This document shows positions 16,641-63,530 of a DNA stretch of 64,000 nucleotides, one piece after another. The DNA is from Camelus ferus (taxonomy: Eukaryota). How positions within the stretch are numbered: the first letter of the stretch is position 1; the number at the start of each line of letters is the position of its first letter. The DNA lies in assembly GCF_009834535.1 (NCBI RefSeq), contig NC_045696.1, positions 56,360,001-56,424,000 of the forward strand, given 5' to 3'. The notes below the pieces were generated by a model. That model was given only the letters and a program-made list of their open reading frames with translations. It searched no databases and was not told the origin of the DNA. Both the position numbers and the translations under genes were made by a program.

Positions 16641-18810
16641 GTGCTTTTGGTGTTGTTTACTGAATATCCTCTTGACAAACAGAAATTAATTTTCTGTGTT
16701 TATCAGTGGTGCCATAAGAAAGTCTTATGTGATTCACCTTTGCATTTATAGTAAAACTATCAATTTTATCCTTCAATGTCCAAGATATAAAACCTAAAGT
16801 GAGAATTTTTTTTAGAGAATAATATTAAGAAATAGTTTTGCCTCTACTAATAAACTAGTATGTATCCTCCTTTTGGATGTTTCCCTTTTTGCCTTTTTAG
16901 GAAACTCAAAGGTAATTTTTAAAACTTTTGGTGAAGAAAAATATGTATAAAGAGAAGTGCAAGTTCAGGCCAAGATGGTGGAGTAGGAAGAACCTCTCTC
17001 AGGCACATCAAAATTATAACTACTTACAGAGCAACTTTTGACGAGAAAGACTAGAATCTAGCAGAAAAGGTCTTCCACAAACTAAAGATATAAAGAAGGA
17101 ACCACAATGAGATGAGTAGGAGGGGCAGAGTCATGGTATTGCTAAGACCCCAGGTGGGTGATCCACAAGTGGAGGATAATTACAATTGCAGAAGTTCTTC
17201 CCAAGCAGCAGTGGGTTTGAGCATCACACCAGGCTCCACGGCCTGTACTGGGAAAACAAGCCCTTGGAACATCTGGCCTGATGGCTAGCAGGGCTTACTT
17301 TCAGGAGGCCAAGAAGGCTATGGGAAATAGGGAATCCACACTTAAAGGGCACACACAAACTCTCACATGCTCCAGGACCCAGTGCAGAAGTAGTAATCTG
17401 AAAGGGGCCTGGGTCAGACTCACATGCTGATCTTGGAGAGGCTCCTAGAGAGGCAGGAGGTGACTGAAACTCTTCCTGGGGATATAGACATTGGTGGCAG
17501 CCATTTCTGGGAGCTCGCCCTACCACATGGACACTGGTGCTGGCAAAGGCCATTACGGAATCATCCCTCTAGCTTATTAGCACCAGGATCCAGCCCCACC
17601 CACCAATGCATAGGTGCTAGCCCTTCAGCCAGAGACCCTGGGGCCCAACTCCACCCACCAGTGGCAGGTACCAGCCCCAGGACCCCTGCCCCCAACCCTG
17701 TGCCCTGGTCCCACCCATCAGTAATTTGGTAGCCTCAGGAAAAGTCTCACACACCAGTGGGCAGGCACCAGCCCCAGGACCCCCTGGCCCCAGCCATACC
17801 CTCCAGTGGACAGACATCAGCCCTAGGATTACCACAGCCCTGCAGTCTGCCATGCAGGACCCAGCCTATCCACCAGTAGGCTAGCACCAGCCCTACGATG
17901 CCCTTGGCCCTGGTCCTGCCCATTAGTAAGCCAACATCACCTCTGAGACACCTTGGGCCCCTCAGCCAGCCACCTTGGGATCTAGCCTACTAATGGGCTG
18001 ACATAAGCTTCTGGACACCTTGGACCCTGTAGCCAGCTGCAGTGTCAAGAACCAACCCTATCCACCAGCAGGTCAACACCAGCTCCAGGGCACCCAGGGC
18101 CCTGCAGCCAGAGATCCTAGGACCCGGCTCTGACTGCAGTGGGCCAGTACTATCCCAGGACCCCAGCTTCACTCACCAAAGGGTGGAAACCAGCCCCAGA
18201 ACCATTGCTGCCCTGTAACCTGCCTTTGTCAGGACCAAGCCAACACACCAGCAGACCAGGACTAGCCCCAGGAACCCCCCCCCAACCTCCCCCAGGCCCT
18301 AGCCCTGCCCACCAGCAGGCCAACACCAGCTCTGGGATACCTCGGGCACCTCAGCCAGAGACCACCCCTGCCCCTGGAATCCCGTTCCAACCACCAACAG
18401 GCTAATATCAGCCCCGAGACACCTTGGTCTCTTCAGCCAGCCACCCTGGGATGTAGCCCCACTCACCAGCGGGCCAGCACCATCTTTGAGACACATCGGA
18501 ATCCAAAGCCAGCAGTGTCAAGAACTGACCCAACCCACCAGCGGGGCAACACTACTAGATCCAGGAAGCCCAGCCCTGCAACCATACAAGGGAACTCCCG
18601 TGACGCTATCAACTGACTTTTCAGCAGAAACTCTGCAGGCCAAAAGGGAGTGGCACAATATACTTAAAATGACGAAAAGGAAAAACTTTTTAGAGAATAC
18701 TGGGCAAGGTTTTCCTTCAGATTTAATGGAGAGATAAAAAGTTTTACAGATAGGCAAAAGCTATAAGAGTTCAGCACCACCAGAAAAGCTTTACAGTAAA
18801 TGTTAAAGGT

Positions 18811-18941
18811 GGGGAGGGTATAGCTCAGTGGTAGAAAGTGTGCTTAGCATGCATAAGGTGCTGGGTTCAATCCCCAGTACCTCCATTAAAATAAATAAGT
18901 AAATAAATAAACCTAATTACTCCCCCCCAAAAACCCCAAAA
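18811..18941 (+). mobile_element. Vic-1-type camelid tRNA-Ala-derived SINE, nested in L1
   Basis: ggggagggtatagctcagtggtaga...gggttcaatccccagtacctcca plus a taaataaacctaattac tail. TSD taaatgttaaag / taaatgtttaag. Confidence 0.9.
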
Positions 18942-19922
18942 TACAATAAATGTTTAAGAGACTTCCCTAAGTGAAAAAGAAAAGGCCACAACTAGAAATA
19001 TATAATTACAAAAGGAAAAAGTTCACTGATAAAGGCAAATATATAGTAAAGGCTGTAAATCAATCATATACAAAGCTAGTAGGAAAGTTAAAAGACCGAA
19101 GAAGTAAAACTATTTATATCCACAATAAGTAGTTAAGGGATACACAAAACAAAGAGATGAGAAAAATGATGTCAAAAACAGTAATCATGAGGGGAGGAGA
19201 GTACAAATGCAGGGTTGTTAAAATGTGTTTGAAATTAAGAGATCAGCAGCTTAAAATAATCATATATAGAGAGAGATAGATTGCTATACATAAACTTCAC
19301 GGTAACCACAAAACAAAAATCTGATACACACACAAAAAAGAGAAAGAAACATAACACTAAAGCTAGTCATCAAATCAAAAGGGAAGAGAACAAAAGAAGA
19401 AAGGAACAAAGAAAAACTACTGAAGAAACCCCCAAACAATTAACAAAATGGCAGTAAGCACATACCTATCAATAATTAAGTGAAAATGGACTAAATGCTC
19501 CAATCAAGAGACATGGAGTGGCTAAATATGTTGCCTACAAGTGACTCATTTCAGATTTAAAGACACATAACTGAGAGCAAGGGGATGGAAAAAGGTATTC
19601 CATGCAAATGGAATCAAATGAAAGCTGGGGTAGCAATACTTACATCAGACAAAATAGACTTTAAAACAAAGACTGTAACAAGAGACAAAGAAGGACATTA
19701 CAAGAAGAAGATATAACAATTGTGGATATATATGTTCCCAACATAGGACAACCAAAATATAAAAAGCAATTGTTAACAGACATAAAAGGGAGAAATTGAC
19801 GGTAATACAATAATAGTAGAGGACTTTAACACCCCACTTACATCAATGGACAGATCATCTAGACAGAAAATCAATGAAGAAGCACTGACCTTAAATGATA
19901 CATTAGATCAAATGGATATATA

Positions 19923-19929
19923 TGTGTGT

Positions 19930-19973
<44 letters not shown>
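19923..19973. repeat. (TG)n microsatellite inside L1 ORF2
   Basis: About 25 TG units with one interruption. Confidence 0.95.
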
Positions 19974-19976
<3 letters not shown>

Positions 19977-22900
19977 CATTCCATCAAAAAACAGCAGAAT
20001 ACAAATTTTTTCAAATATACATGGAACATTCTCTTGGATAGATTACTTGCTAGACCACAAGACAAGTCTCAGTAAATTTAAGAAAATTGAAATCACATCA
20101 AGCATCTTTTCCAACCACAACACTGTGAGACTAGAAATCAGTAACAAGAAAAAAGATGCACAAAACATAAACACATGGAAGCTAAACAGCATGCTACTAA
20201 ACCACCAAAGGATCACTGAAGAAATCAAAGAAAAAAGTTAAAAAACCTAGAAACAAATAAAAATAAAAACACAATGATCTAAAATCTATAGGATGCATCA
20301 AAGCAGTTCTAAGAGGGAAGTTTATAGTGATACAAGCTTACATCTGGAAATAAGAAAAATATCAAATAAAGAACCCAAACTTACACCTAGAGAAACTAGA
20401 AAAAGAGTAACAAATAAAACCCAAAGTTAGTATAAGGAAAGAAATCATAAAGATCAAATGAGAAATAAATGAAATAGAGACTAAAAATATACACATATAT
20501 ATATATATGTATAGAAAAGAGAAATGAAACTAACAGCTGGTTCTTTGAAAAGATAAACAAAATTGATAAATCTTTAGCCAGACTCATCAAGAAAAAAAGA
20601 GAGGGTCCAAATCAATAAATCAGTAATGAAAAAGGAGAAGTTACAACCAACACCACAGAAATACACAGGATCCTAAGAGATGACTAAGAACAGCTATACA
20701 TCAATAAGATGGACAACCTAGCAGAAATGGACAAATATCTATAAATGTACAATCTCCCAAGACTGAACCAGGAAGAAATAGAAAATATGAACAGACCAAT
20801 TACCAGTAATGAAATTAAATCAGTAATAAAAAATACCAACAAAAGTCCAGGACCAGATGACTTCACAGGTGAATTCTACCAAACATAGAAGAGTTAACAC
20901 TTATCATTCTGAAACTATTCTAAAAAACTGCAGAGGAAGTAATGCTTCTGAACTCATTATACAAGGCCAGCATCACTCTACACCAAAACCAGACAGAGAT
21001 ATCACACACACACAAAAGAAAATTACATGCCAATATCACTGATGAATATAGATGCAAAAATTCCCAATAAAATATTAGCAAACACTACATTAAAAGGATC
21101 ATACACCATGATCAAGTGGGATTTATCCCAGGGATGCAAGGGTTTTTTCAGTATTTGCAAATCAATCAATGTGATATACCACATTAACAAACTGAAGAAT
21201 AAAAATCATATGATTTTATCAATAGATGCAGTAAAAACTTTTGATAAAATTCAGCATCCATTTACAAAAAAAACTCTCCACAAAGTGTGTATAGAGGGAA
21301 CATACTTCAACATAATAAAGGCTGTATTTGATAAGCCCAAAGCCAACATCATACTCAACAGTGAAAAGCTGAAAGCATTTCCTCTAAGATCAAGAACAAG
21401 ACCAGGACGCCCTCTCTCACCACTTCTATTGAACATAGTATTGAAACTCCTAGCCACAACCATCAGACAAGAAAAGAAATGAAAGGAATCCAAGTTGGAA
21501 AGGAAGAAGTAAAATGTTGACTGTTTGCAATGACAGAATATTATACACAGAAAATCCTAAAGACACCACCAAAACCCAACTAGGGTTCATCAATGAATTT
21601 GGTAAAGTTGCAGGATACAAAATTAATATACAGAAACCTGCTACATTTCTATACACTAACAATAAACTATCGGAAAGAGAAACTAAGGAAACAATCCCAT
21701 TTACCATTGCTTAAAAAAACAAACAAACCTAGGAATCTAACTAAGGAGACAAAAGACTTGCTCTGAAAACTGTAAGACAATGATGAATAAAACTGAAGAT
21801 GATACAAACAGATGGAAAGATACACTGTGTTCATGGACTGGAAGAATTAATATTGTTAAAAATGACCATAGGCATTACCCAAGGCAATCTACAGATTCAA
21901 TGCAATCCCTATCAAAATACCAATGGCAACTAGAACAAATAATTTTAAAATTTGTATGGGAGCACAGAAGAACTTGAACAGCCAAAACAATCTTGAGAAA
22001 GAACAGAACTGGAGGATCATGCTCCCTGGCTTCAGACTATACTACAAAGCTACAGTAATCAAAAGAGTATGGTACTGGCACAAAAACAGACACATGGATC
22101 AATGGAACAGGATAAAAAGCCCAAAACTAAGCCCACACACTTATAGTCAAATACAACAAAGGAGGTAAGAATATACAATGGAGAAAAGACAGTCTCTTCA
22201 ATAAGTGATGTTGGGAAATCTGGACAGCTACATGTAACAGAATGAAATTAGAACATTCTCTAACACTATATAGAAAAATAAACTCAAAATGGATTAAGAT
22301 ATAATGTAAGACTGGATACTATAAAAATCCTAAAAGAAAACATAGGTAGAACACTCTGACATAAATCACAGCAATATTTTTTTGGATCTGTATCCTTAGG
22401 AAAAGCAAAACTAAACAATGGGATCTAATTAAACTTAAAAGCTTTGCACAGCAAGGGAAACCACTGACAAACTGAAAAGGCATTCTACTGAATGGGAGAA
22501 AATATTCGTAAATATTTGCAAATGATATGACCGATAATGGGTTAATATCCAAAATATATAAAACAGCTCATACAATGCAATATCAAAAAAATAGCCTAAT
22601 TAAAAAATGGGCAGAAGACCTGAGTAGACATTTTCCCAAAGAAAACATTCACATGGCCAAGAGGCACATGAAAAGATGCTCAACATTGCTAATCATTAGA
22701 GAAATGCAAATCAAAACCACAATGAGATATCACCTCACACTTGTCAGAATGGCTACTGTCAAAAGACCACAGATAGCAAATATTGGCAAATATGTGGAGA
22801 AAGGGAACCTTTGTACACTATTGGTGGGAATGTAAATTGGTACAGTCACAGTGGTAAACAGTATAGAGGTTCCTCAAGAAACTAAAAACAGAACTATTAT

Positions 22901-23519
22901 ATGACCCAGCCATTCCACTCATTGAGTATATATCTGAAGAAAATGAAAACACTAATTTGAAAAGGTATATAAGCACACCAATGTTCATGGCAGCATTATT
23001 AACCATAGCCAAGATACAGAAGCAACCTAAGCATCCATCAGCAGATGAATGAATAAAGAAGATGTGGTACATGTACACAATGGAATACTACTCAGTCACA
23101 AAAAAGAATGAAATAATGCCATTTGCAACAACATGGATGGGCCTGGAGGATACTATTCTTAGTGAAATAAGTCAGAGAAAGACAAATACTATACATTATC
23201 ACTTATATGTGGAATCTAAAAAATAAAACTAATGAATATAAGAAAACAAAAAGAGCTTCACAGGTTTAGAGAACAAAGTAGTGGTTACCAGTGGGGAGAG
23301 AGAACAGGATAGGAGCAAGGCAGGGGAATGGGATTAAGAGGTACAAACTTCTATACATAAAATAAATAAGCTACAACGATATATTCTATAGCACAGGGAA
23401 TATAGTCAATGTTTTATAATAACTCTAAATGGAGTATAAACCATAAAAAATTTGAATCAATATGTTGTACATCTGAAATTAATACAATATTATAAATCAA
23501 CCATACCACAGTAAAAAAA

Positions 23520-38461: not shown

Positions 38462-38592
38462 TCTTTTTTTTGATGGTGGGGAGGTAATTAGGTTTATTTA
38501 CATATTTATTTTTGGAGGAGGTACTGGGGATTGAACACGGGATCTCATGCATGCTAAGCATGTGCTCTACCACATGAGCTATACCCTCCCCC
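38462..38592 (-). mobile_element. Vic-1-type SINE
   Basis: ggaggtaattaggtttattt...gaggtactggggattgaac...gcatgctaagcatgtgctctaccac...gagctataccctcccc. Confidence 0.9.
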
Positions 38593-46718: not shown

Positions 46719-48012
46719 TTTTTTTTTTAATTTAAAGTATAGTCAGTTTACAATGTTGTGTCAACTTCTGGTGTACAGCATAATGTTTCAGTCACATAGA
46801 TACATACACCTATTTGTTTTCTTTTTTTTTTCATTATAGGTTACTATAAGATATTGAATATACTTCCCTGTGCTATACAGAAGAAACCTGTTTATCTATT
46901 TTATATATAGTAGTTAGTATCTGAAAAATTCAAACCCCCAATTTATCCCCTCCCACCCCTTTCCCCACCCCGATAACCACAAATTTCTTTTCTATGTCTG
47001 TGAGTCTGTCTCTGTTTTATAAATAAGTTCACTTGTGTCTGTCTTTTTTTTTTTTTTTAAGATTCCATATATAGGTGATATCATATGGTATTTTTCCTTT
47101 TTCTTCTGGCTTACTTCACTTAGACTGACATTCTCCAGGTCCACCTATGTTGCTGCAAATGGCACTATTTTATTCTTTTTTATGGCTGAGTAGTATTTCC
47201 ATTCTATATATATTCCACATCTTCTTTATCCAGTCATCTGTTGATGGACATTTAGGTTGCTTCCATGTCCTGGCTATTGTAAATAGTGCTGCTGTGAACA
47301 CTGGGGTGCACAAATCCTTTTGAATTAGAGTTCCTTCCAGATACATGCCCAGGAGTGGGATTGCTGGATCATATCTTTTTAGTTTTTTAAGGAATCTCCA
47401 TACTGTTTTCCACAGTGGCTGCACCAAACTACATTCCCACCAACAGTGTAGGAGGGTTCCCTTTTCTCTACACCCTCTCCAGAATTTATCATTTGTGGAC
47501 TTTTTAATGATGGCCATTCTGACTGGTGTGAGGTGATACCTCATTGTAGTTTTGATTTGCATTTCTCTGATAATTAGCAATACTGAGTATTTTTTCATAT
47601 GCCTATTAGCCATTTGTATGTCTTCACTGGAAAATTGCTTGTTTAGGTCTTCAGCCCATTTTTGGATTGGGTTGTTTGTTTTTTGTTATTGAGTTGTATG
47701 AGCTGTTTGTATATTCTGAAGATTAAGCCCTTGGCAGTCCTATCATTTGCAAAAATTTTCTCCCATTCTGTAGGTTATCTTCTTGTTTTGTTTATAATTT
47801 CTTTTGCTGCGAAAAAAGCTTACATGTCTAATTAGGTCCCATTTATTTATTTTTGCCTGGGTAGACTGCCCTAGAAGAACAACACATAGAAAAGGTTGCA
47901 CACTATGATCAAGTTGGATTCATTCCAGGGATACAAAGATGGTTCAACATACGCAAATCAATCAATGTGATATACCGTATCAAAAGAAAGGACAAAAATC
48001 ACATGATCATCT
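46719..48012 (-). mobile_element. Young L1 with a 5' inversion
   Basis: Antisense 3' end at 46719-47878 (poly-T first) is joined to a sense-strand RT-domain piece at 47878-48012. Confidence 0.88.
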
Positions 48013-49571: not shown

Positions 49572-49697
49572 TTGCGAGGGCAGTTGTGGTCATTAGGTTT
49601 ATTTATTTATTTATTTTAATGGGGGTACTGCGGATTGAACCCATGACCTTGTGGATGGTAAGCATGAACTCTACCACTGAGCTATACTGTACCCCCC
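49572..49697 (-). mobile_element. Vic-1-type SINE
   Basis: Same tRNA-like head as the other copies. 16-bp TSD aagagtaatgaccttt (49556-49571) / aagagtaatgatcttt (49698-49713). Confidence 0.9.
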
Positions 49698-51136
49698 AAG
49701 AGTAATGATCTTTATACAGTATTTAAAATCAAATTTTGAAAGAATAATGAATTACAGATTCCCGATGGCAGAGGCCATGTTCATTAATGCAGGAAATATT
49801 GATTGATCAACTATTATGTGCTGGTCACTGTGCTGAGAGCTAGGGATGCAGCAGGGAATAAGACAACGCTGTCTTGTTCTAGCACCTAGCACAGAGCCTG
49901 GTACACAGCAGTTCATACTTGTTGAAGCGAATCCAGAGATATTAAGAAAACATTGTATAGCATAGGCGTCCTAGACTCCTAGAAACAATACTCAGGACAT
50001 CTAGATACTCCTATAACTAAGCAGAAACAGGAGGTTTGATTCATAAAGAGGGGCTGGAAAATCCCCCTGACTACTGTGGGAGCATCTCCTGCTTTCAGAG
50101 ACCTGCCCTGATGTGTTTTGCTGACTCTCTCTATACTTTCAGGTATAAACTGGCACAACCACACAAACTGGGCTGTGAGTCACTACTGCCTTATAGACGG
50201 ATCTCAGAGACCTATTAACACTCCACACTATTGCCAGGGGCTGGAGTTGGGAATTTAAAAAAAAAAAAAAAGGCAACATACTAACTTCCCTCACCAACTT
50301 CCCAGAGTTGTGCTATTACCTAAAAGCACTCAGGTACTATTATGCAAATTATACATGCATGATTTCCATAAAAACCAGTCACAAATATCAATTAGAGCTC
50401 ATTAATATGCAATAAAATTCTCACTTGAAAACTATTAAGAGCCAAGAATGAATTCCACTTGGCTGCCCTCCTTTAATGAGAACTGCTGTGAAGTGCTCTA
50501 TGCTATTTCTCATCAGCGAAACAGTAAGGTGTCATGACAGATCAAGCTTCAGGCAACAGAAGGACAAGAGAGAATGATCATTTGAAGGATTCAAAGACTG
50601 GTTTTGGACAGGTTGGAAGTTTTATGCTGCTATGGCTAAGACCTCAGTCCAGAACGCAGGCTGAGTGAATTCATTAATCTACCTTGCAAATGGAGCCATG
50701 GTGATACAGATCACTGCTTTAAAGGATGTTTGTAAGGGGGCCACACCGCTGGAAAAAGGTAAATAAAACCGATCCTGAGGTCGGTTTGTTCAGGAAAATG
50801 AATGTTCTACTCCCCAAAAGAAGCAGAGATCTGAGGCCCTTGGAATTAATGGGACTCACCCTCTAAAAGCCTTCTGGTCAGGATTTTTATGACTGAATTT
50901 ATATGCTGTGTCACTGAGTTCCAGTTTCATCTGGCCATTGGATTTCTCTCAACTGTTGTTCAGTGTGGTTGTGCAATCCAAGACACTTGTGCAAGAGTGA
51001 TTCAGGCTCTTTGAGGATAAAGAGATGGAAAATATAAGCTATCAACACTACACTCTTCATTCTGCAGCCATTTCCTTATCAAAATGGCTTAAACTTGGCC
51101 AGGTAGAGAATAGGCTTTTCTAAGTATAGTTTAACC

Positions 51137-54271: not shown

Positions 54272-54626
54272 TACTCCTTTTGATATGTAACTTTTCACTT
54301 GCATTCAGTCTAAACTAATTTCTCATTTCCTTTTTGATTTCTTCTTTGCTTTATGAGCTATTTTGAAGTATATTGTTTAGTTTCCAAATGTTTGAAGATT
54401 TCTATGATTGATTTCTTACTTAGTTTTATTGTGGTCAAGAACACACTTTGTATGATTTGAATCTTTTTAACTATATTGAAACTTGTTCTGCAGCCTAGAA
54501 TATGGTCTATCTTGATAAACGTTCCATGTGCACTTTAAAGGAATGTATACTTTGCTGTCAATGGGTAAAATGCTCTATATAGATCAGTGAGGTCAAGCTG
54601 ATTATGTTGGTTCCTTCTATATCTTT

Positions 54627-54986
54627 TTTTGGGGGGATTTTTTTTTTTATTTAAGTGTAGTCAGTTTACAATGTTGTGTCAATTTCTGGTGTATAGCATA
54701 ATGCTTCAGTCATACATGAACATACATATATTCATTTTCATATTCTTTTTCACCATAAGTTACCACAGGATATTAAATATAGTTCCCTGTGCTATCCAGT
54801 ATGAACTTGTTGTTTATTGGATTTCGGGAGAAACCTCCTGTATTTTGAAACGAGAGACACTCTGCCAGAGTTCAGTAGGTGTTCTGTGTGATTCAGTGGG
54901 CTTGTAGATGTAATTCTTGATGTATTTGTGGGAGAGGGCAAGCTGTGAGTCTCTCTACTCCACCATCTTGGCACCTCCCTGACCCC
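54627..54986 (-). mobile_element. 360-bp mini-L1: L1 5' terminus fused to L1 3' terminus
   Basis: Minus strand reads ggggtcagggaggtgccaagatggtggagtag... (5' UTR start, 54986-54818), then ataaacaacaagttcatactg...aaactgactacacttaaataaaaaaa (3' UTR end). TSD 54612-54626 / 54987-55001 (13 of 15 identical). Confidence 0.85.
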
Positions 54987-55384
54987 TTCTTCTGTATCTT
55001 TAATTATTTTCTGTCTTTTTGTTACATCCACCACTGAGAGAAAGTTAATGAAATTTTGGACTACAATTATGAATTTGTCTATTTCTCCTCAAAGTCAGTA
55101 TCATTTCTATTTCCTATATTTTGAAGTTCTATTATTAGCTGCATAAATGTTTAGTATTGTTACAGCCTAATGACTTGATTACTTTATCATTAAGAAATTA
55201 TTTTCTTCATCCATGGTAATACTCTTTGCTCTGTGATCTACTTTATCTGATACTAGTATTGCTACTCAGCTATATTTTGATTATTATTAATATGCTTAAA
55301 ATTTTCCATTCTTTTCCTTTAATTTATTTGTGCCTTGATACGTAAAGTCTGTTTCTTATACATAGTATATAATTGACTTTCCTT

Positions 55385-55528
55385 AGAGGGGAGGGTATAG
55401 CTCACTAGTAGAGCGCATATGTAACATGAACTAGGTTCTGGGTTCAATCCCCAGTACCAACAGTTAAAATAAACAGATGTATAAATAAACCTATCTACCT
55501 CCTCCCCCTCCAAAAACAAAGTTTAAAA
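55385..55528 (+). mobile_element. Vic-1-type SINE
   Basis: Perfect 14-bp TSD aattgactttcctt (55371-55384 / 55529-55542). Confidence 0.92.
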
Positions 55529-58500
55529 AATTGACTTTCCTTTTTAATCCTATCTGGCAATTTCTGTCTTTTACCTGAGGTATTGAGATCCTTTATATCT
55601 AAAGTAGTTTTTGGTATATTATCTATATTTTTAGGTTTAAACATATAATATTGCTATTGTTTTTAAATTTATCTCCTCCCTTGTTTCCCCTTCTCTCCTT
55701 TTCTGTCTTCTTTTAGGTAAATTGAGTATTTTTATGATTCCACTTCATCTCTCTTTTGGCTTATTAGCTATACTTCTTTTCTGTGACTGTTTTTGTTTAT
55801 AGATATATCCTTAACCTATCACAGTCTCCCCTCAAGTGGTATCATATCACTTCACATGTAGTATAAGAACCTGACCAAAATATACTTCTATGCCTCCACT
55901 ACCAGCCTCTGTACTGTCATTGGCATATATTTTCTCTTACATATGTTATAAACCTCAAAATACCTTGTTTTTATTTTTCTTTAAACTGTCAATTATACTT
56001 ACAAGAGGTTTAAATAATAACAAAAATCTTGTATGCTTCCCCATCTAGTTACCCTATCTGGTGCTCTTCCTTTTTTTGTATATATCCATATTTCCTACTG
56101 GTATCCTTTTTCTCCTGCTGGAAGCACTTCCTTTGACATTTCTTGCAGTCCACATCTGCCAGTAATGAATTCTTTCAGCTTTTATATATCTGAGAAAGTC
56201 TTTTGCCTTTGTTTTGAAAGATATTTTCACTGGGCATAGAATTCTAGGTTGAAGGGTTTTGTTTTATTTTTCTAGTACTTAAAAAATGCTGCTCCATTGC
56301 CTTTTTGCTTGCATTTTTTTTCCTGATGAAGTCTGTGAAAACTCTGCCATTCTTATCTTTGTTCCTCTTATGTAATGTGTTTTTCCCTCTGGCCGCTTGA
56401 AGATTTTCAGTTTATCACTGACTTTGAGCAATCAGATTATGATGACACATCTGGTGGATTTTTTTTTAAGAGCTTGTTGAACTTCTTGGATCTGTGAGTC
56501 TACAGTTTTCATCGAAGTCAAAAATGTTTCACCCATTATCTCTTCAAATATTTTTCTGTGCCATCCCTTGGGGCATTCCAATTACATATATATTAGTTTC
56601 TTATTACTCTAAACATTCTTGAACACTTTTCTGGGATGCAGTTAAATTAGTTGGGAATACTTTGGTACATTTGGGTTTTATTTTAAGATATCAGTCAGGA
56701 TCAGAGCAGTGTTCAATCCAGGACTAATTTTTCCCCACTACTAAGTCATGATGACGTTTCAGAGCACACTACCCAATATTCCATGAATTATGTGCTTTTC
56801 CAGTCTGACCAGTGGGAACAGGCACTATTCCCCACCCTATGTGATTAGCAAGTATTGATCCCTCTAATCCTTTTGAATGGTTCTTTTTCCTTCCCTAGGT
56901 AGCTTCCTCACAACCATGTGCTGATAAGTACTCAGCTTAAAATTTGAGATGTACTCTGTGAGAATCTCTGAAGTTCTCTCTGTGCAGTTCTGTCCTCTCC
57001 AACAGTCTGTCCTGGAAAATTCCAGCTGCCTCAGTCTCCCTATACTTGACACTGTCTTCTCATCTCAGGGAGTCTACATTCTCCCTTTTTTGCACCATAT
57101 TCTAGAGTGTATCGTGGTATGCCTCCTTTTTTTGTTTTATTTCACTGAATATCAGAAACCACACATTAAAAATATAGAAGCTCTAGATCATTTTCTCTTT
57201 TCCAAAGTACATGTTTTTGGATCTTGTCAAGATGGCAGAGTAGAAGGAACTTGAGCTCACCTCGTCTCATGAACACAACAAAACCACAACTGACAGCTAA
57301 ACAACCATCGATAAAAAAAGACTAGAACCTACCAGAAAAGATCTTCTACAACTGGAGACATAAAGAGGGAACCAAAGTGGGAGGGTTGTAGGGGTGCACT
57401 TGCCATTATAAACGGGTCCTGTACCCAGCTGGTGAACAATTATATTGTGGAGGTTCTCCCATGGGAGTGAGAGTTCTAAGCCCCACATCAGGCTTTGAAG
57501 GCCAGTGGGGCTTAATTGCAGGAGCATCAAAGGACTGGGGAAACAGATTTCACTCTTAAGGAGCACACACAAAATCTTATGTGTACCGAGACCAAAAGCC
57601 AAAGCAGTGATTTCACAGGCGCCTGGGCCAGACCTGCCTGCTGGTCTTGGAAGGTCTCCTGAGGAGGTGGGTGGAGGGGGGCGGCTGTAGCTCACCCTGG
57701 GGACATAAAAGCTGGTGGCGGGAGTATTCATCTGCATAAGCTCTCCTGGAGGCTGACATCTTGTTTGGGTCATTAGCACCAACACCTGGCCCCACCCAAC
57801 AGCCTATAGGCTTAAAAGCTGGGACATGTCAGGGCAAACAACTAACTGGGTGGGAATACATCCCCACCCATCAGCAGAAAGGCCACCTAAAAACTGAGCT
57901 CACAGCCACCTCTAGGCATGCCCCTAGGGGTGCCTACCAAAGGGCCAGGACCCAGCTCCACCCACCAGTGGACAGGCACTGGCTCCTCCCACCAGAGAGC
58001 CTGCACAATCCTCTAGACTAGCATCACCCATGGTGGGGGGGAGGGGGGGAGATACCAGAAGCAAGAAAACTATCACCCCACAGCTTGCGGAGCCAAATCT
58101 GTAAACTCAGGCCAGACCTCTACCCTGCAACCAGCGAGCTCCTGGCCCTTGGGTGAGTACACTGCTGGGAGTGCACTGCTGGGACACATAGGACATCCCC
58201 TACAGAAGGACACTTCTCCAAGGTCAAGAAACATAACTAACCCACCACATAATAAAAATACAAACAGAAATTTAGACAAAATGAGGTGGCAGAGAAATAT
58301 GTTCCAGACAGAAAACAAGATACAACCTCAGAAGAACTAAGTGAAGTGGAGATAGGCAATCTACCCGAGAAAGAGTTCAGAGTAGTGATAGTAAAGATGA
58401 TCCAAGAACTCTGGAGAAGAATGAATACACAGAGCAAGAAGTTAGAAGTTTTTAACAAAGAGCTAAAAAGTATAAAGAACAACCAAACACAGTTGAAGAC

Positions 58501-60007: not shown

Positions 60008-60573
60008 TTTTTTAGGGGGGGAGATAATTAGGTTTACTTGTTTTTTTTTTTTAATTTATATATATTTTTATTGAAGTACAATCAGTTTACAATGTTGTGT
60101 CAATTTATGGTGTACAGCACAATATTTCAGCCATATAGGAACATACATATATTCATTTTCATATTCTTTTTCACCATAACTTACTACAAGATATTGAATG
60201 TAGTTCTCTGTGGTATACAGTATAAACTTATTTATCAATTTATATATAGTAGTTAGTATCTGCAAATCTCAAACTCTTAATTTATCCCTTCCCATCCCCT
60301 TCTCCCCCTGGTAATGATAAGTTTGTTTTCTATGTCTGTGAGTCTGTTTCTGTTTTGTTAATAAGTTTGTTTGTCTTTTTTTTTAGATTTCACATATAAG
60401 TTATCTCATATGGTATTTTTATTTCCCTTTCTGGATTACCTCACTTAGAATGACATTCTCCAGGTCTATCCATGCTGCTGCAAATTGCATTATTTTATTA
60501 TTTTTTATGGCTGAGTAGAATTTATTTTTAGAAGAGGTACTGGGGATTGAACCACTTGAGCTATACCCTACCC
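60008..60573 (-). mobile_element. Vic-1-type SINE split by a young L1 3' end (about 60041-60520), nested in L1 ORF2
   Basis: SINE tail ggggagataattaggtttac at 60008-60040, then L1 poly-T and 3' UTR, then the SINE head gaggtactggggattgaacc...gagctataccctaccc at 60521-60573. Confidence 0.85.
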
Positions 60574-63355
60574 TTAATCAAACAAACATTAACAGAAATA
60601 AAAGGGAGAACTTGACAGTAACACAGTAATAGTGGGGGACCTTAACACCTCCCTTACATCAATGGACAGATCATCCAGACAGAAAATCAATAAGGAAACA
60701 CAGGCTTTAAATAACAAATTAGACCAGATGGACTAAACTGATACTTACAGAGCATTCCATCTTGAAGCAGAATATATATATCCTTATATATTCTTCTCAA
60801 GTGTACCTAAAACATTCTCCAGGATATATCATGTGCTGGGCCGCAAAGCAAGCCTCAGTAAACTTAAGAAAATTGAAATCATGTCAAGTATCTTTTCCAA
60901 CCACAACACTATGAGATTAGAAATCAATTACAAGAAAAAACTGCAAAAAAACCCCACAATCACTAAAGAAATCAAAAAGGAAATTCAAAAAATACATAGA
61001 GACAAATGAAAATGAAAACACAATGATCCAAAACCTATGGGACACAGCAAAACCAGTTCTAAGGGAGAAGTTTAGAGTAATACAAGCTTACTACAGGAAA
61101 CAAGAAAAATCTGAAATAAAGAACCTAACCTTACACCTAAAGCAACTACAGAAAGAAGAACAAACAAACCCCAAAGTTAACATAAGGAAAAAACCATAAA
61201 GATCAGAGCAGAAATAAATGACACTAAAAAAAAAAAAAAAAATTGAAAAGATCAATATAAAACTAAAAGCTGGTTCATTGAAAAGATAAACAAAATTGAT
61301 AATCTTAAGCCAGACTCATCAAGAAAAAAAGGGAGAGGGCCTAAATCAATAAAAACAAAAACAAAAAAAGGAGAAGTTACAACTGACACTACAGAAATAC
61401 AAAGGACCATAAGAGGCTATTATGAGCAACTACAGGCCAATAAAATGGACAACCTAGAAAAAAATGGATAAATTCTTAGAAAGGTACAATCTCCCAAGAC
61501 TGAACCAGGAAGAGAGAGAAAATACAAACAGACCAATTACCAGTACTGAAATCAAATCAGTAATTAAAAACCTCCCAACAAACAAAAGTCCAGGACCAGA
61601 TGGCTTCAATGGTGAATTCTACCAAACATTTAGAGAAGAGTTAACACCTATCCTTCTGAAACCATTCCAAATAATTGCAGAGGAAGGAACACTCATTCTA
61701 TGAGACCACAATCACCGTGATATCAAAACCAGACAAAGATATCATAAAAGGAGAACATTAGAGGCCAATATCACTGATGAATATAGATGTAAAATCTCAA
61801 CAAAATATTAGCAAACTGAATCCAACAATATAGTAAAAGGATAACATACTATGGTCAAGTGGGATTTATCCCAGGGATGCAAGGACCTTTCAATATCCAC
61901 AAATCAATCAATGTGATATACCACATTAACCAACTGAAGAAAAACCATATGATCAACTCAATAGACAGAGAAAAAGCTTTGGATAAAATTCAACATCCAT
62001 TTATGATATAAACTCTTCAGAAAGTGGGCTTAGAAGGAACATATCTCAACATAATAAAAACATTATATGACAAACCCATATGTAACATCATACTCAATGG
62101 TGAAAAACTGAATTTCTCCTAAGATCAGGAACAAGACAAGGATGCTCACTTCCTCCACTTCTGTTCAACTTAGTTTTGGCAGTGCTAGCTACAGCAATCA
62201 GAGAAGAAAATGAAGTTTAAAAAATTTAAATAGGAAAAGGAGTAAAACTGTCACTGTGTCAAGATGACATGATACTATACACAGAAAATCCTAAAGAGAC
62301 TAACAGAAAACTATGAGAGCTCATCAATGAATTTGATAAAGTTGCTGGATACAAAATTAATACACAAAAAAACTGTTGCATTTCTATACACTAACAACAA
62401 AATATCAGAAAGAGAAATTAAGGAAACAATCCCATTTACCATTGCTTCAAAAAGAATAAAATATCTAGCAATAAACCTACCAAAAGAGGCAAAAGACCTG
62501 TGCTCTGAAAATTATAAGATGCTGATAAAAAAAAATGAAGGTGACAGAAACAGATAGAAAGATATACCATGTTCTTGGATCGGAAGAATAAATATTAAAA
62601 TAAATACCAATGCAATCTACAGATTCAATGCAATTCCTATCAAAAATGGCCTTTTTCACAGAACTAGAACAAGTAATTTTAAAATTTGTATGGGAACACG
62701 AAAGACCTCAAATAGCCAAAACAATCTTGAGAAAAAAGAACAGAGCTGGAGGAATCATCCACCCCGACTTCAGACCATACTACAGAGCTACAGTGATCAA
62801 AACAGCATGGTAGTGGCACAAAAAAACAGATCAACGGAACAGGATAGAAAATCCAGAAATAAATCCATGCACGTATGGTCAATTAATCTAAGACAAAGGA
62901 GACAAGAATATATGATGGAGAAAAGACAATCTCTTCAATAAGTGGTGCTGGGAATACTGGACAGCTACAAGTAAAAGAATGAAATTAGAACATTCTCTAA
63001 CACTGTATACAAAAATAAACTCAAAGTGGATTAAAGACCTAAATGTGTGACTGGATACTATAAAACTCCTAGAGGAAAACATAGGCAGAACACTTTTTAA
63101 CATAACATTTTTTTGGGATCTATCTCCTAGAGTACAGGAAATAAAAGCAAAAATAAACAAATGGGACCTAATTAAACTTAAAAGCTTTCACACAGCAAAC
63201 GATACCATCAACATACTGAAAAGTCAATCTACTAAATGAGAGGAAATATTTTCAAATAATATGACTGATAAGGGATTAATATCCAACATATATAAATAGC
63301 TCATACAACTCAACATCAAAAAAGACAAACAGCTCGATTTAAAAATGGGCAGATA

Positions 63356-63530
63356 CACAGGGAACTATATTCAATATCTTGTAGTAACTTATGGTGAAAA
63401 AGAATATGAAAATGAATATATGTATGTTCCTATATGACTGAGCATTGTGCTATAAACCAGAAATTGACACAACATTGTAAACGGACTATACTTTGTTAAA
63501 AAATATATTATAAATAGATAAATAAATATT
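63356..63530 (+). mobile_element. Short young L1 3'-end insertion nested in the older L1
   Basis: cacagggaactatattcaatatcttgtag...gaaattgacacaacattgtaaac, flanked by duplicated aaatgggcaga. Confidence 0.85.

What the first reader, a model, noticed from the sequence alone, without database searches (positions are those of the whole stretch)
54627..54986. 360-bp mini-L1 retaining only both termini: candidate spliced L1 retrocopy or SINE-like non-autonomous family
Seen: a single insertion with a TSD (13/15 identical) at a TT/AAAG endonuclease-type site, with an A tail. It consists of 169 nt of L1 5' UTR start (YY1-like caagatggtgg, as at the L1 5' ends at 16971 and 57228) joined at 54818/54817 to the last ~190 nt of the camelid L1 3' UTR. 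Both ORFs are absent. In an uninterrupted 3' UTR copy in this window (46889-46919, minus strand) the same point reads TACTAACtactatatataaaatAG|ATAAACA. The junction therefore falls exactly after an AG, with a perfect branch-point heptamer 19 nt upstream. The TACTAAC is also present at 60252-60258. Established: human L1 RNA can be spliced and retrotransposed (SpIREs). Inference: this is a 5'UTR-to-3'UTR spliced L1 RNA mobilised in trans. Because it keeps the promoter start and the poly(A) end, it could be a non-autonomous family. Caveats: the polypyrimidine tract is poor, and the donor GT cannot be seen in this window.
Basis: partly seen in the sequence, partly recalled or inferred. Interest (0 to 1): 0.78.

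Follow-up and report, generated by a model that had tools for sequence, protein, structure and literature searches.

The report
Spliced, ORF-less mini-L1 retrocopy family
This 360-base insert is one of dozens to perhaps a hundred or more copies of a short element made of only the two ends of an L1 retrotransposon, most likely because L1's own RNA had both of its genes spliced out as one intron and was then pasted back into the genome by other L1s.

Summary
Observation confirmed. The minus-strand insert (54986-54627) has a 13/15 TSD, an A tail, 169 nt of L1 5'UTR start and 169 nt of L1 3'UTR end. It splits an older L1 ORF2 remnant cleanly. It is not single-copy: in two whole-genome contig sets, 20 and 22 contigs carry the CpG-ancestral G at the junction. 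At least four diverged non-focal copies cross it, and summed depth suggests about 10^2 copies. The acceptor side ends in AG in the consensus of 549, 562, 161 and 607 records. The first AG after TACTAAC is the junction. In 5 of 5 related L1 5'UTRs, G|GTAGGG sits at the homologous point. The direct parent's donor was not read. Chance of a GT-AG fit is 0.3-0.6%. Best reading (0.8): 5'UTR-to-3'UTR spliced L1 RNA, retrotransposed in trans many times. It works like a SpIRE and is built like a SIDE. Self-propagation is untested (0.25). My searches found no ORF-less bipartite L1 in print. This scan noted the same kind before in another genome (e1-7855650, unchecked). New variant of a known kind.

The parts
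54987..55001 (-). 5' copy of the target-site duplication (13/15), part of the host L1 ORF2 remnant
54818..54986 (-). First 169 nt of an L1 5'UTR (putative exon 1). Its last base is G in the ancestral state (CpG decay in this copy).
   Evidence: 74-81% identity over 77-112 nt to L1 5'UTRs L001, L002, L004, L005; C at 54818 on + strand in 20, 22 and 8 contigs
54960..54970 (-). YY1-like motif CAAGATGGTGG at the L1 5' end (motif name from established knowledge)
54817..54818 (-). Junction: aligns with G|GTAGGG in related 5'UTRs and with AG|ATAAAC in the parent 3'UTR
54649..54817 (-). Last 169 nt of the L1 3'UTR (putative exon 2), AATAAA at 54651-54646
54627..54648 (-). Degenerate poly(A) tail (A11, short C run, A4)
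54612..54626 (-). 3' copy of the target-site duplication
54290..55163 (-). Host: decayed older L1 ORF2 endonuclease region, split by the insertion
   Evidence: tblastn
46895..46919 (-). Reference acceptor in an uninterrupted 3'UTR: TACTAAC (46919-46913), branch A at -19, first downstream AG at 46897-46896
17116..17121 (+). GTAGGA at the roughly homologous position (+159) of an older L1 5'UTR
57388..57393 (+). GTAGGG at the roughly homologous position (+170) of another older L1 5'UTR

Best explanation
A full-length L1 of a now-decayed subfamily was transcribed from its internal Pol II promoter. The spliceosome joined a donor about 170 nt into the 5'UTR (G|GTAGG) to an acceptor about 170 nt before the poly(A) site (branch point TACTAAC, first downstream AG). 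This removed most of the promoter region and both ORFs as one intron of several kb. The resulting polyadenylated non-coding RNA of about 340 nt was reverse-transcribed at L1 endonuclease sites by ORF1p/ORF2p supplied in trans, many times. Being short, it was often copied to its 5' end. SHOWN: insertion anatomy, many diverged copies with the same junction, AG acceptor consensus, GT at the homologous site of related L1s. INFERRED: the donor in the direct parent, the splicing event itself, trans-mobilisation. OPEN: whether copies came from repeated splicing of many parents (dead ends, like SpIREs; about 0.55 overall) or partly from inserted copies acting as new sources (about 0.25 overall).
For: Clean TPRT-type insertion; 20 (X1), 22 (X9) and 8 (X15) contigs, and 5 of 10 raw reads (4 starts), carry the ancestral base at 54818. 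Of 24 listed pieces, 2 bridge the junction by the tool's 31-letter rule (42 and 39 letters on the short side) and 4 more with 30 letters. Their difference counts (20, 24, 29, 30) mark at least 4 non-focal loci. Two of them run on 3465 and 618 letters past the 5' end without lying on this flank. Loose ends at 54817 give an AG-ending consensus in 549, 562, 161 and 607 records, with TACTAAC in the raw-read consensus. Parent-type pieces stop at 54818-54820 and run on 82-158 letters. A G at the first post-junction base is seen in 11, 12 and 6 contigs (10-17% of depth, against 3-5% at the listed sites 54794, 54795 and 54810 in X1 and X9); in X15 all six such pieces end within 4 letters, as parents beginning GTA would. 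MAFFT puts the junction exactly at G|GTAGGG in 4 of 4 aligned loci, and all 5 have it 45-46 nt after a shared anchor against 43 nt here. Random breakpoint pairs fit GT-AG at 0.3-0.6%, and G|GTRnG plus YAG at 0.01-0.07%. Human L1 RNA is spliced and retrotransposed, also in trans (PMC5860796).
Against: The direct parent's letters after the 5' segment were never displayed: the relevant loose ends were among 381 rows not shown. L001-L005 are a different L1 family, only 74-81% alike over part of the segment, and need a 2-nt gap to align. Their donor scores only 5 of 9 against the U1 consensus in four of five loci and is not their top-scoring GT. There is no polypyrimidine tract. In three of four runs the loose-end consensus reads TACAAAC, not TACTAAC, so the perfect branch point belongs to a subset of subfamilies. 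Only 1 of 5 window 3'UTR copies has the AG. The chance figures use criteria chosen after seeing the data. The 10 junction reads in RNA carry 7-9 or more differences and show no fresh spliced transcript.
Confidence: 0.8

Rival explanations
1. Variant of the best explanation (nested in its 0.8): one or a few spliced copies kept enough promoter, or borrowed a host promoter, and became source elements. The copies are then a self-propagating, Pol II, SINE-like L1 family.
For: Junction depth is 17% (X1) and 28% (X9) of the 5'-segment depth at 54846, against about 2% SpIREs among human full-length L1s. The last exon base is A in 56-69% of depth, while the opposite CpG product is 9-12%. This skew is larger than at two other CpG sites and could mark a source copy. 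The YY1-like start and poly(A) end are retained. A human SpIRE regained activity through a host promoter (bioRxiv 2025.02.02.635956).
Against: The ratio is inflated if the human-like filter drops full-length L1 contigs, and a 340-nt RNA reaches its 5' end far more often than a 6-7 kb one (inference). The skew may be reference bias toward the focal base. Human SpIREs that lose 5'UTR sequence have weak promoters. No shared diagnostic variants could be examined.
Confidence: 0.25
2. A single DNA-level or RT-level deletion in one L1 made a founder, which was then amplified as a SIDE. The splice-like signals are coincidence.
For: Bipartite ORF-less LINEs are usually ascribed to internal deletion (PMC5786205, PMC6740152). 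A fixed junction in many copies is also expected from one founder. The donor was not read in the direct parent.
Against: A random deletion fits GT-AG at 0.3-0.6%. It would also have to hit the first AG after a branch heptamer. No microhomology beyond one G.
Confidence: 0.13
3. Recurrent template jumping of ORF2p within L1 RNA, guided by structure or by the similar AAAAT runs upstream of both breakpoints.
For: Both sides have an AAAAT run 2-3 nt before the junction in the majority letters. Template switching is a known route to L1 chimeras.
Against: The runs are out of register and only one G is shared. Loose ends and spanning pieces centre on one position. The element shows no notable structure (z 0.23), though the parent RNA was not folded.
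Confidence: 0.05
4. A one-off: post-insertion deletion of a full-length L1 here, or chance juxtaposition of two L1 fragments.
Against: At least four other diverged loci and 20-22 contigs per genome cross the same junction. One TSD brackets both parts.
Confidence: 0.02

Closest known systems
SpIREs, spliced integrated retrotransposed elements of human L1 (Larson et al. 2018, PMC5860796)
   Same: Early 5'UTR donor, retrotransposed spliced L1 RNA, TSD and A tail, on the order of 10^2 copies (116 SpIRE97/622). One class needs trans-complementation.
   Different: The described classes are intra-5'UTR or 5'UTR/ORF1 and keep ORF2. Here the acceptor is in the 3'UTR, both ORFs are gone, the product is 360 bp and must be mobilised wholly in trans.
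SIDEs / bipartite ORF-less non-autonomous LINEs (RIME, NARTc, Vingi derivatives, Bov-A, RTESINE, R2 SIDE, Persaeus; PMC5786205, PMC6740152, PMC7245038)
   Same: Only the 5' and 3' ends of the partner LINE, no ORF, multi-copy, presumably Pol II.
   Different: Reported for RTE, Ingi, Vingi and R2 and for CR1, not for the L1 clade. They are ascribed to internal deletion: 'splic' occurs 0 times in both papers. Self-propagation is not shown here.
HAL1 (half-L1)
   Same: L1-derived non-autonomous bipartite element.
   Different: HAL1 keeps ORF1; this element keeps no ORF.
TINEs of tarsier (PMC5059674)
   Same: Short Pol II, polyadenylated, L1-mobilised retrosequences from a defective element; SINE status debated.
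   Different: LTR-derived, about 30,000 copies, not described as spliced in the passages read.
Processed pseudogenes
   Same: Spliced, polyadenylated Pol II RNA retrotransposed by L1 in trans.
   Different: The 'gene' is L1 itself and both exons are L1 UTR.

Membership tests
SpIRE | L1 TPRT hallmarks (TSD, EN site, A tail) | tested here: met
SpIRE | Junction directly after an AG acceptor of the parent L1 | tested here: met
   loose-end consensus at 54817 in 4 of 4 runs; 46.9-kb copy; 1 of 5 window copies has it
SpIRE | Junction directly before a GT donor of the parent L1 | tested here: inconclusive
   met in 5 of 5 related 5'UTRs and hinted by G at +1 in 11, 12 and 6 contigs; direct parent not read
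SpIRE | Same junction in independent insertions | tested here: met
   at least 4 diverged non-focal loci; 20 and 22 contigs with the ancestral base; their TSDs were not seen
SpIRE | Acceptor in 5'UTR or ORF1 with ORF2 retained (the two described classes) | tested here: not met
   acceptor is in the 3'UTR and no ORF remains; so not a member of the described classes, though it works like them
SpIRE | Spliced RNA shown from a full-length element | not testable with these tools
   10 junction reads in X24 carry 7-9 or more differences and cannot be told from reads of inserted copies
SIDE / bipartite ORF-less LINE | Only 5' and 3' termini of a LINE, no ORF | tested here: met
SIDE / bipartite ORF-less LINE | Multi-copy with fixed structure | tested here: met
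   copy number only of order 10^2
SIDE / bipartite ORF-less LINE | Copies descend from non-autonomous source copies (shared diagnostic variants) | not testable with these tools
   no genome held; the lay gives no full sequences
SINE (Pol III) | tRNA, 7SL or 5S-derived head | tested here: not met
   ARAGORN finds nothing in the element; Rfam gives only a sub-threshold hit, 19.9 bits against 95; the head is L1 5'UTR
HAL1 | Retains ORF1 | tested here: not met
   360 bp, both halves are UTR

The most novel reading that the evidence does not exclude
The mammalian L1 clade, thought not to yield ORF-less bipartite elements, does so by splicing. A donor conserved near +170 of related L1 5'UTRs pairs with a 3'UTR acceptor that gained a perfect branch point in one lineage. 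The spliced product then became a self-propagating Pol II SINE-like family. A similar element noted in another genome with no shared sequence words suggests this can happen in more than one lineage.
Probability: 0.25. Interest if true: 0.78.

Novelty: new variant of a known kind. Interest (0 to 1): 0.56.

Why it matters
It extends L1 self-splicing from small 5'UTR trims to removal of the whole coding region. It would add the L1 clade to the short list of LINEs that give ORF-less bipartite elements. It offers a concrete mechanism, splicing, for a class usually put down to unexplained 'internal deletion'. That makes a standing question testable: do SIDE and bipartite-SINE junctions fall at GT-AG in their parents? 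Repeat annotators would split such copies into two L1 fragments, so similar families may be hidden in other mammals (inference).

Tried and rejected
No genome is held, so copies could not be counted directly. DNA pattern scans for the parent or for junction copies gave 0 matches in viral contigs, genome contigs and the first metagenome scan. Only one search gave loci, and all 5 are of another L1 family with no junction. BLAST against plasmids and phages: no match. Searching an open frame of the 5' segment against predicted proteins, to read the parent's next codons: no candidate at 30-98 aa; 14 candidates, none at E 10 or better, at 99-2000 aa. Rfam mir-9235 hit rejected as chance. No special RNA structure. 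RNA runs do not show independent transcription: junction reads run 9:1 in the same direction as ordinary L1 3' ends (1142:241), and no silent stretch was laid as a control. Papers with nothing relevant in the passages read: bioRxiv 2022.02.16.480772, PMC4398370. Belancio 2006 is not held, so any 3'-end acceptors it reports were not seen. Supplements of PMC8605555 could not be read; its repeat library, and Repbase or Dfam entries, may already hold this element.

Full report
ANATOMY. The element lies on the minus strand from 54986 to 54627. It is bracketed by a 15-bp duplication matching at 13 of 15 at a TT/AAAG site. A tblastn with the window's own L1 ORF2 N-terminus shows that the flanks are colinear halves of an older L1 endonuclease remnant: residues 8-66 end at 54987 and residues 69-126 resume at 54612. 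So this is one clean insertion. It consists of 169 nt that begin with a G run and a YY1-like motif, 169 nt of L1 3'UTR end (80-92% identical to four window copies) and a degenerate A tail. Fourteen DNA-type runs of one coded organism in five studies hold 82-87% of the words of 54300-55300. That is more than the flanks alone (64% of the stretch) could supply, so the insertion is common or fixed there (inference).

IS IT A FAMILY? No genome was available. I laid 4 of the 24 listed runs on 54775-55104 at 80% likeness: two genomic contig sets, one RNA contig set and one raw single-cell RNA run. The stretch was cut to hold only 43 nt of the high-copy 3' part. Depth counted at 54817 and 54818 was 1173/1156 (X1), 1538/1527 (X9), 239 (X15) and 10 reads (X24). 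Listed single contigs have a median depth of 13 and 10, which gives roughly 90-145 copy-equivalents. The tool warns that this is not a copy number. The filter also removed the focal locus itself (flank depth near 0), so the figure is only an order of magnitude. Firmer are the contig counts: 20, 22 and 8 contigs have C at 54818, which is G at the end of the 5' segment, so the focal A is CpG decay. Of 24 listed pieces (9391 not shown), 2 bridge the junction by the tool's 31-letter rule and 4 reach 30 letters, ending at a contig end. Their difference counts (20, 24, 29, 30) mark at least four loci other than this one. Two continue 3465 and 618 letters beyond the 5' end without lying on this flank. 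Their TSDs and tails were not seen. Other pieces stop at 54818-54820 and run on 82-158 letters; these look like unspliced parents.

ACCEPTOR. Records that match only the 3' part break off at 54817 (549, 562, 161 and 607 records). Their loose-end consensus ends in AG in all four runs. Smaller groups break at 54808-54818. The raw-read consensus carries TACTAAC; the three contig consensuses read TACAAAC, so the perfect heptamer belongs to a subset of subfamilies. The window copy at 60.2 kb, which shares the focal copy's 3'UTR type, has TACTAAC. In the 46.9-kb copy the junction AG is the first AG after the heptamer, with the branch A at -19. There is no pyrimidine tract, and only 1 of 5 window copies keeps the AG.

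DONOR. The parent subfamily is not in the window, and the lay did not print the parents' loose ends. Five pattern scans found nothing. A sixth returned five metagenome contigs, L001-L005, which are 5'UTRs of a related L1 family (whale-type by my recall). Four are 74-81% identical over 77-112 nt of the 5' segment; L003 starts later and matches over 27 nt. MAFFT of 4 of the 5 (L004 left out because of an internal duplication) puts the junction exactly at G|GTAGGG. In all five this GT is 45-46 nt after a shared anchor, against 43 nt here. The window's two older 5'UTRs have GTAGGA and GTAGGG at about the same place. In one search a G at the first post-junction base appears in 11, 12 and 6 contigs, and in X15 none of those pieces goes more than 4 letters further. 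This fits parents beginning GTA, but it is a hint only. Against: by a crude U1 match this donor scores 5 of 9 in four loci and is top-ranked only in L005. Random breakpoint pairs between these 5'UTRs and two window 3'UTRs can be read as GT-AG in 0.3-0.6% of cases, and as G|GTRnG with YAG in 0.01-0.07% (criteria set after seeing the data). Only one G is shared across the junction, so microhomology does not explain it.

MECHANISM. Most likely (0.8) an L1 transcript was spliced from the early 5'UTR donor to the late 3'UTR acceptor. The short non-coding poly(A) RNA was then inserted by L1 proteins in trans, repeatedly. Whether inserted copies seeded further copies is open (0.25). Two weak hints favour it. 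Junction depth is 17-28% of the 5'-segment depth at 54846, against about 2% for human SpIREs. The decayed A at the exon end is also more skewed than at two other CpG sites. Both have simple bias explanations. The focal copy differs from 96-97% of the depth at six listed non-CpG sites in about 210 nt, and CpGs are mostly decayed, so the family is old. I estimate some 10-25 million years, from general substitution rates. RNA data show no fresh spliced transcript: the 10 junction reads carry 7-9 or more differences and the same strand bias as ordinary L1 3' ends.

COMPARISON. It works like a human SpIRE (PMC5860796: abstract, Introduction, results section 7, first part of Discussion and passages read). 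It is not a member of the two described classes, which keep ORF2. It is built like a SIDE. Kojima 2018 (PMC5786205, passages) states that ORF-less bipartite LINEs were reported only for RTE, Ingi, Vingi and R2; PMC6740152 (passages) adds CR1; PMC7245038 (passages) again concerns RTE. TINEs (PMC5059674, passages) are a looser analogue. A camelid TE survey (PMC8605555, passages; supplements unavailable) and a casein-cluster paper (PMC6726744, passages) show no such element in what I read. Nine literature searches found no ORF-less bipartite or 5'UTR-to-3'UTR spliced L1. The library lacks most subscription papers, Belancio 2006, Repbase and Dfam, so this is not proof of absence. The scan's own notes hold one similar finding in another genome (e1-7855650). 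It shares no sequence words with this one. I had reached the same reading before seeing it, could not check it, and do not count it as support.

VERDICT. A real, multi-copy, ORF-less L1 derivative whose junction fits splicing on both sides, the donor indirectly. New variant of a known kind; interest 0.56. If self-propagation is shown (0.25), it would be an L1-clade SIDE born by splicing, with interest about 0.78.

Noticed in passing
table 5; window 54817/54819 joined to 54903/54902: Single contigs (one in X9; one each in X1 and X9) join the 3'UTR side at or next to the same acceptor to a point about 84 nt further up the 5' segment. This could be a second donor, another 5'UTR subfamily using the same acceptor, or a later deletion. 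L001, L002, L004 and L005 have a GT near the homologous point. Two other single-contig skips (54840-54941, 54861-54937) lie within the 5' segment.
   Followed up: no
window 18811-18929 (+), 38474-38591 (-), 49589-49700 (-), 55388-55517 (+): Four copies of a tRNA-Ala-headed SINE of about 120 bp (self-BLAST; ARAGORN of the 4). Probably Vic-1/SINE_VV by recall. PMC8605555 reports camelid SINEs as nearly all MIR.
   Followed up: partly
window 63352-63503 (+): An ordinary 5'-truncated L1 3' end of about 150 bp, inserted in an older L1 with an apparent TSD. It is the closest window relative of the element's 3' half (92%).
   Followed up: partly
window 54825, 54827, 54833: Three private substitutions within 9 nt just upstream of the junction, where 96-97% of the depth in X1 and X9 reads otherwise.
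   Followed up: no
loose ends at 54817; window 46913-46919, 60252-60258: L1 3'UTR subfamilies differ in TACAAAC versus TACTAAC at the putative branch point. Gain of the perfect heptamer may have switched the acceptor on.
   Followed up: no
window 16958-23519 (+): An old, near full-length L1 with a (TG)n run in ORF2 and a tRNA-Ala SINE inserted at 18811.
   Followed up: no
L004, about 300-370 of the oriented contig: A tandem duplication of about 40 nt within the related L1 5'UTR.
   Followed up: no
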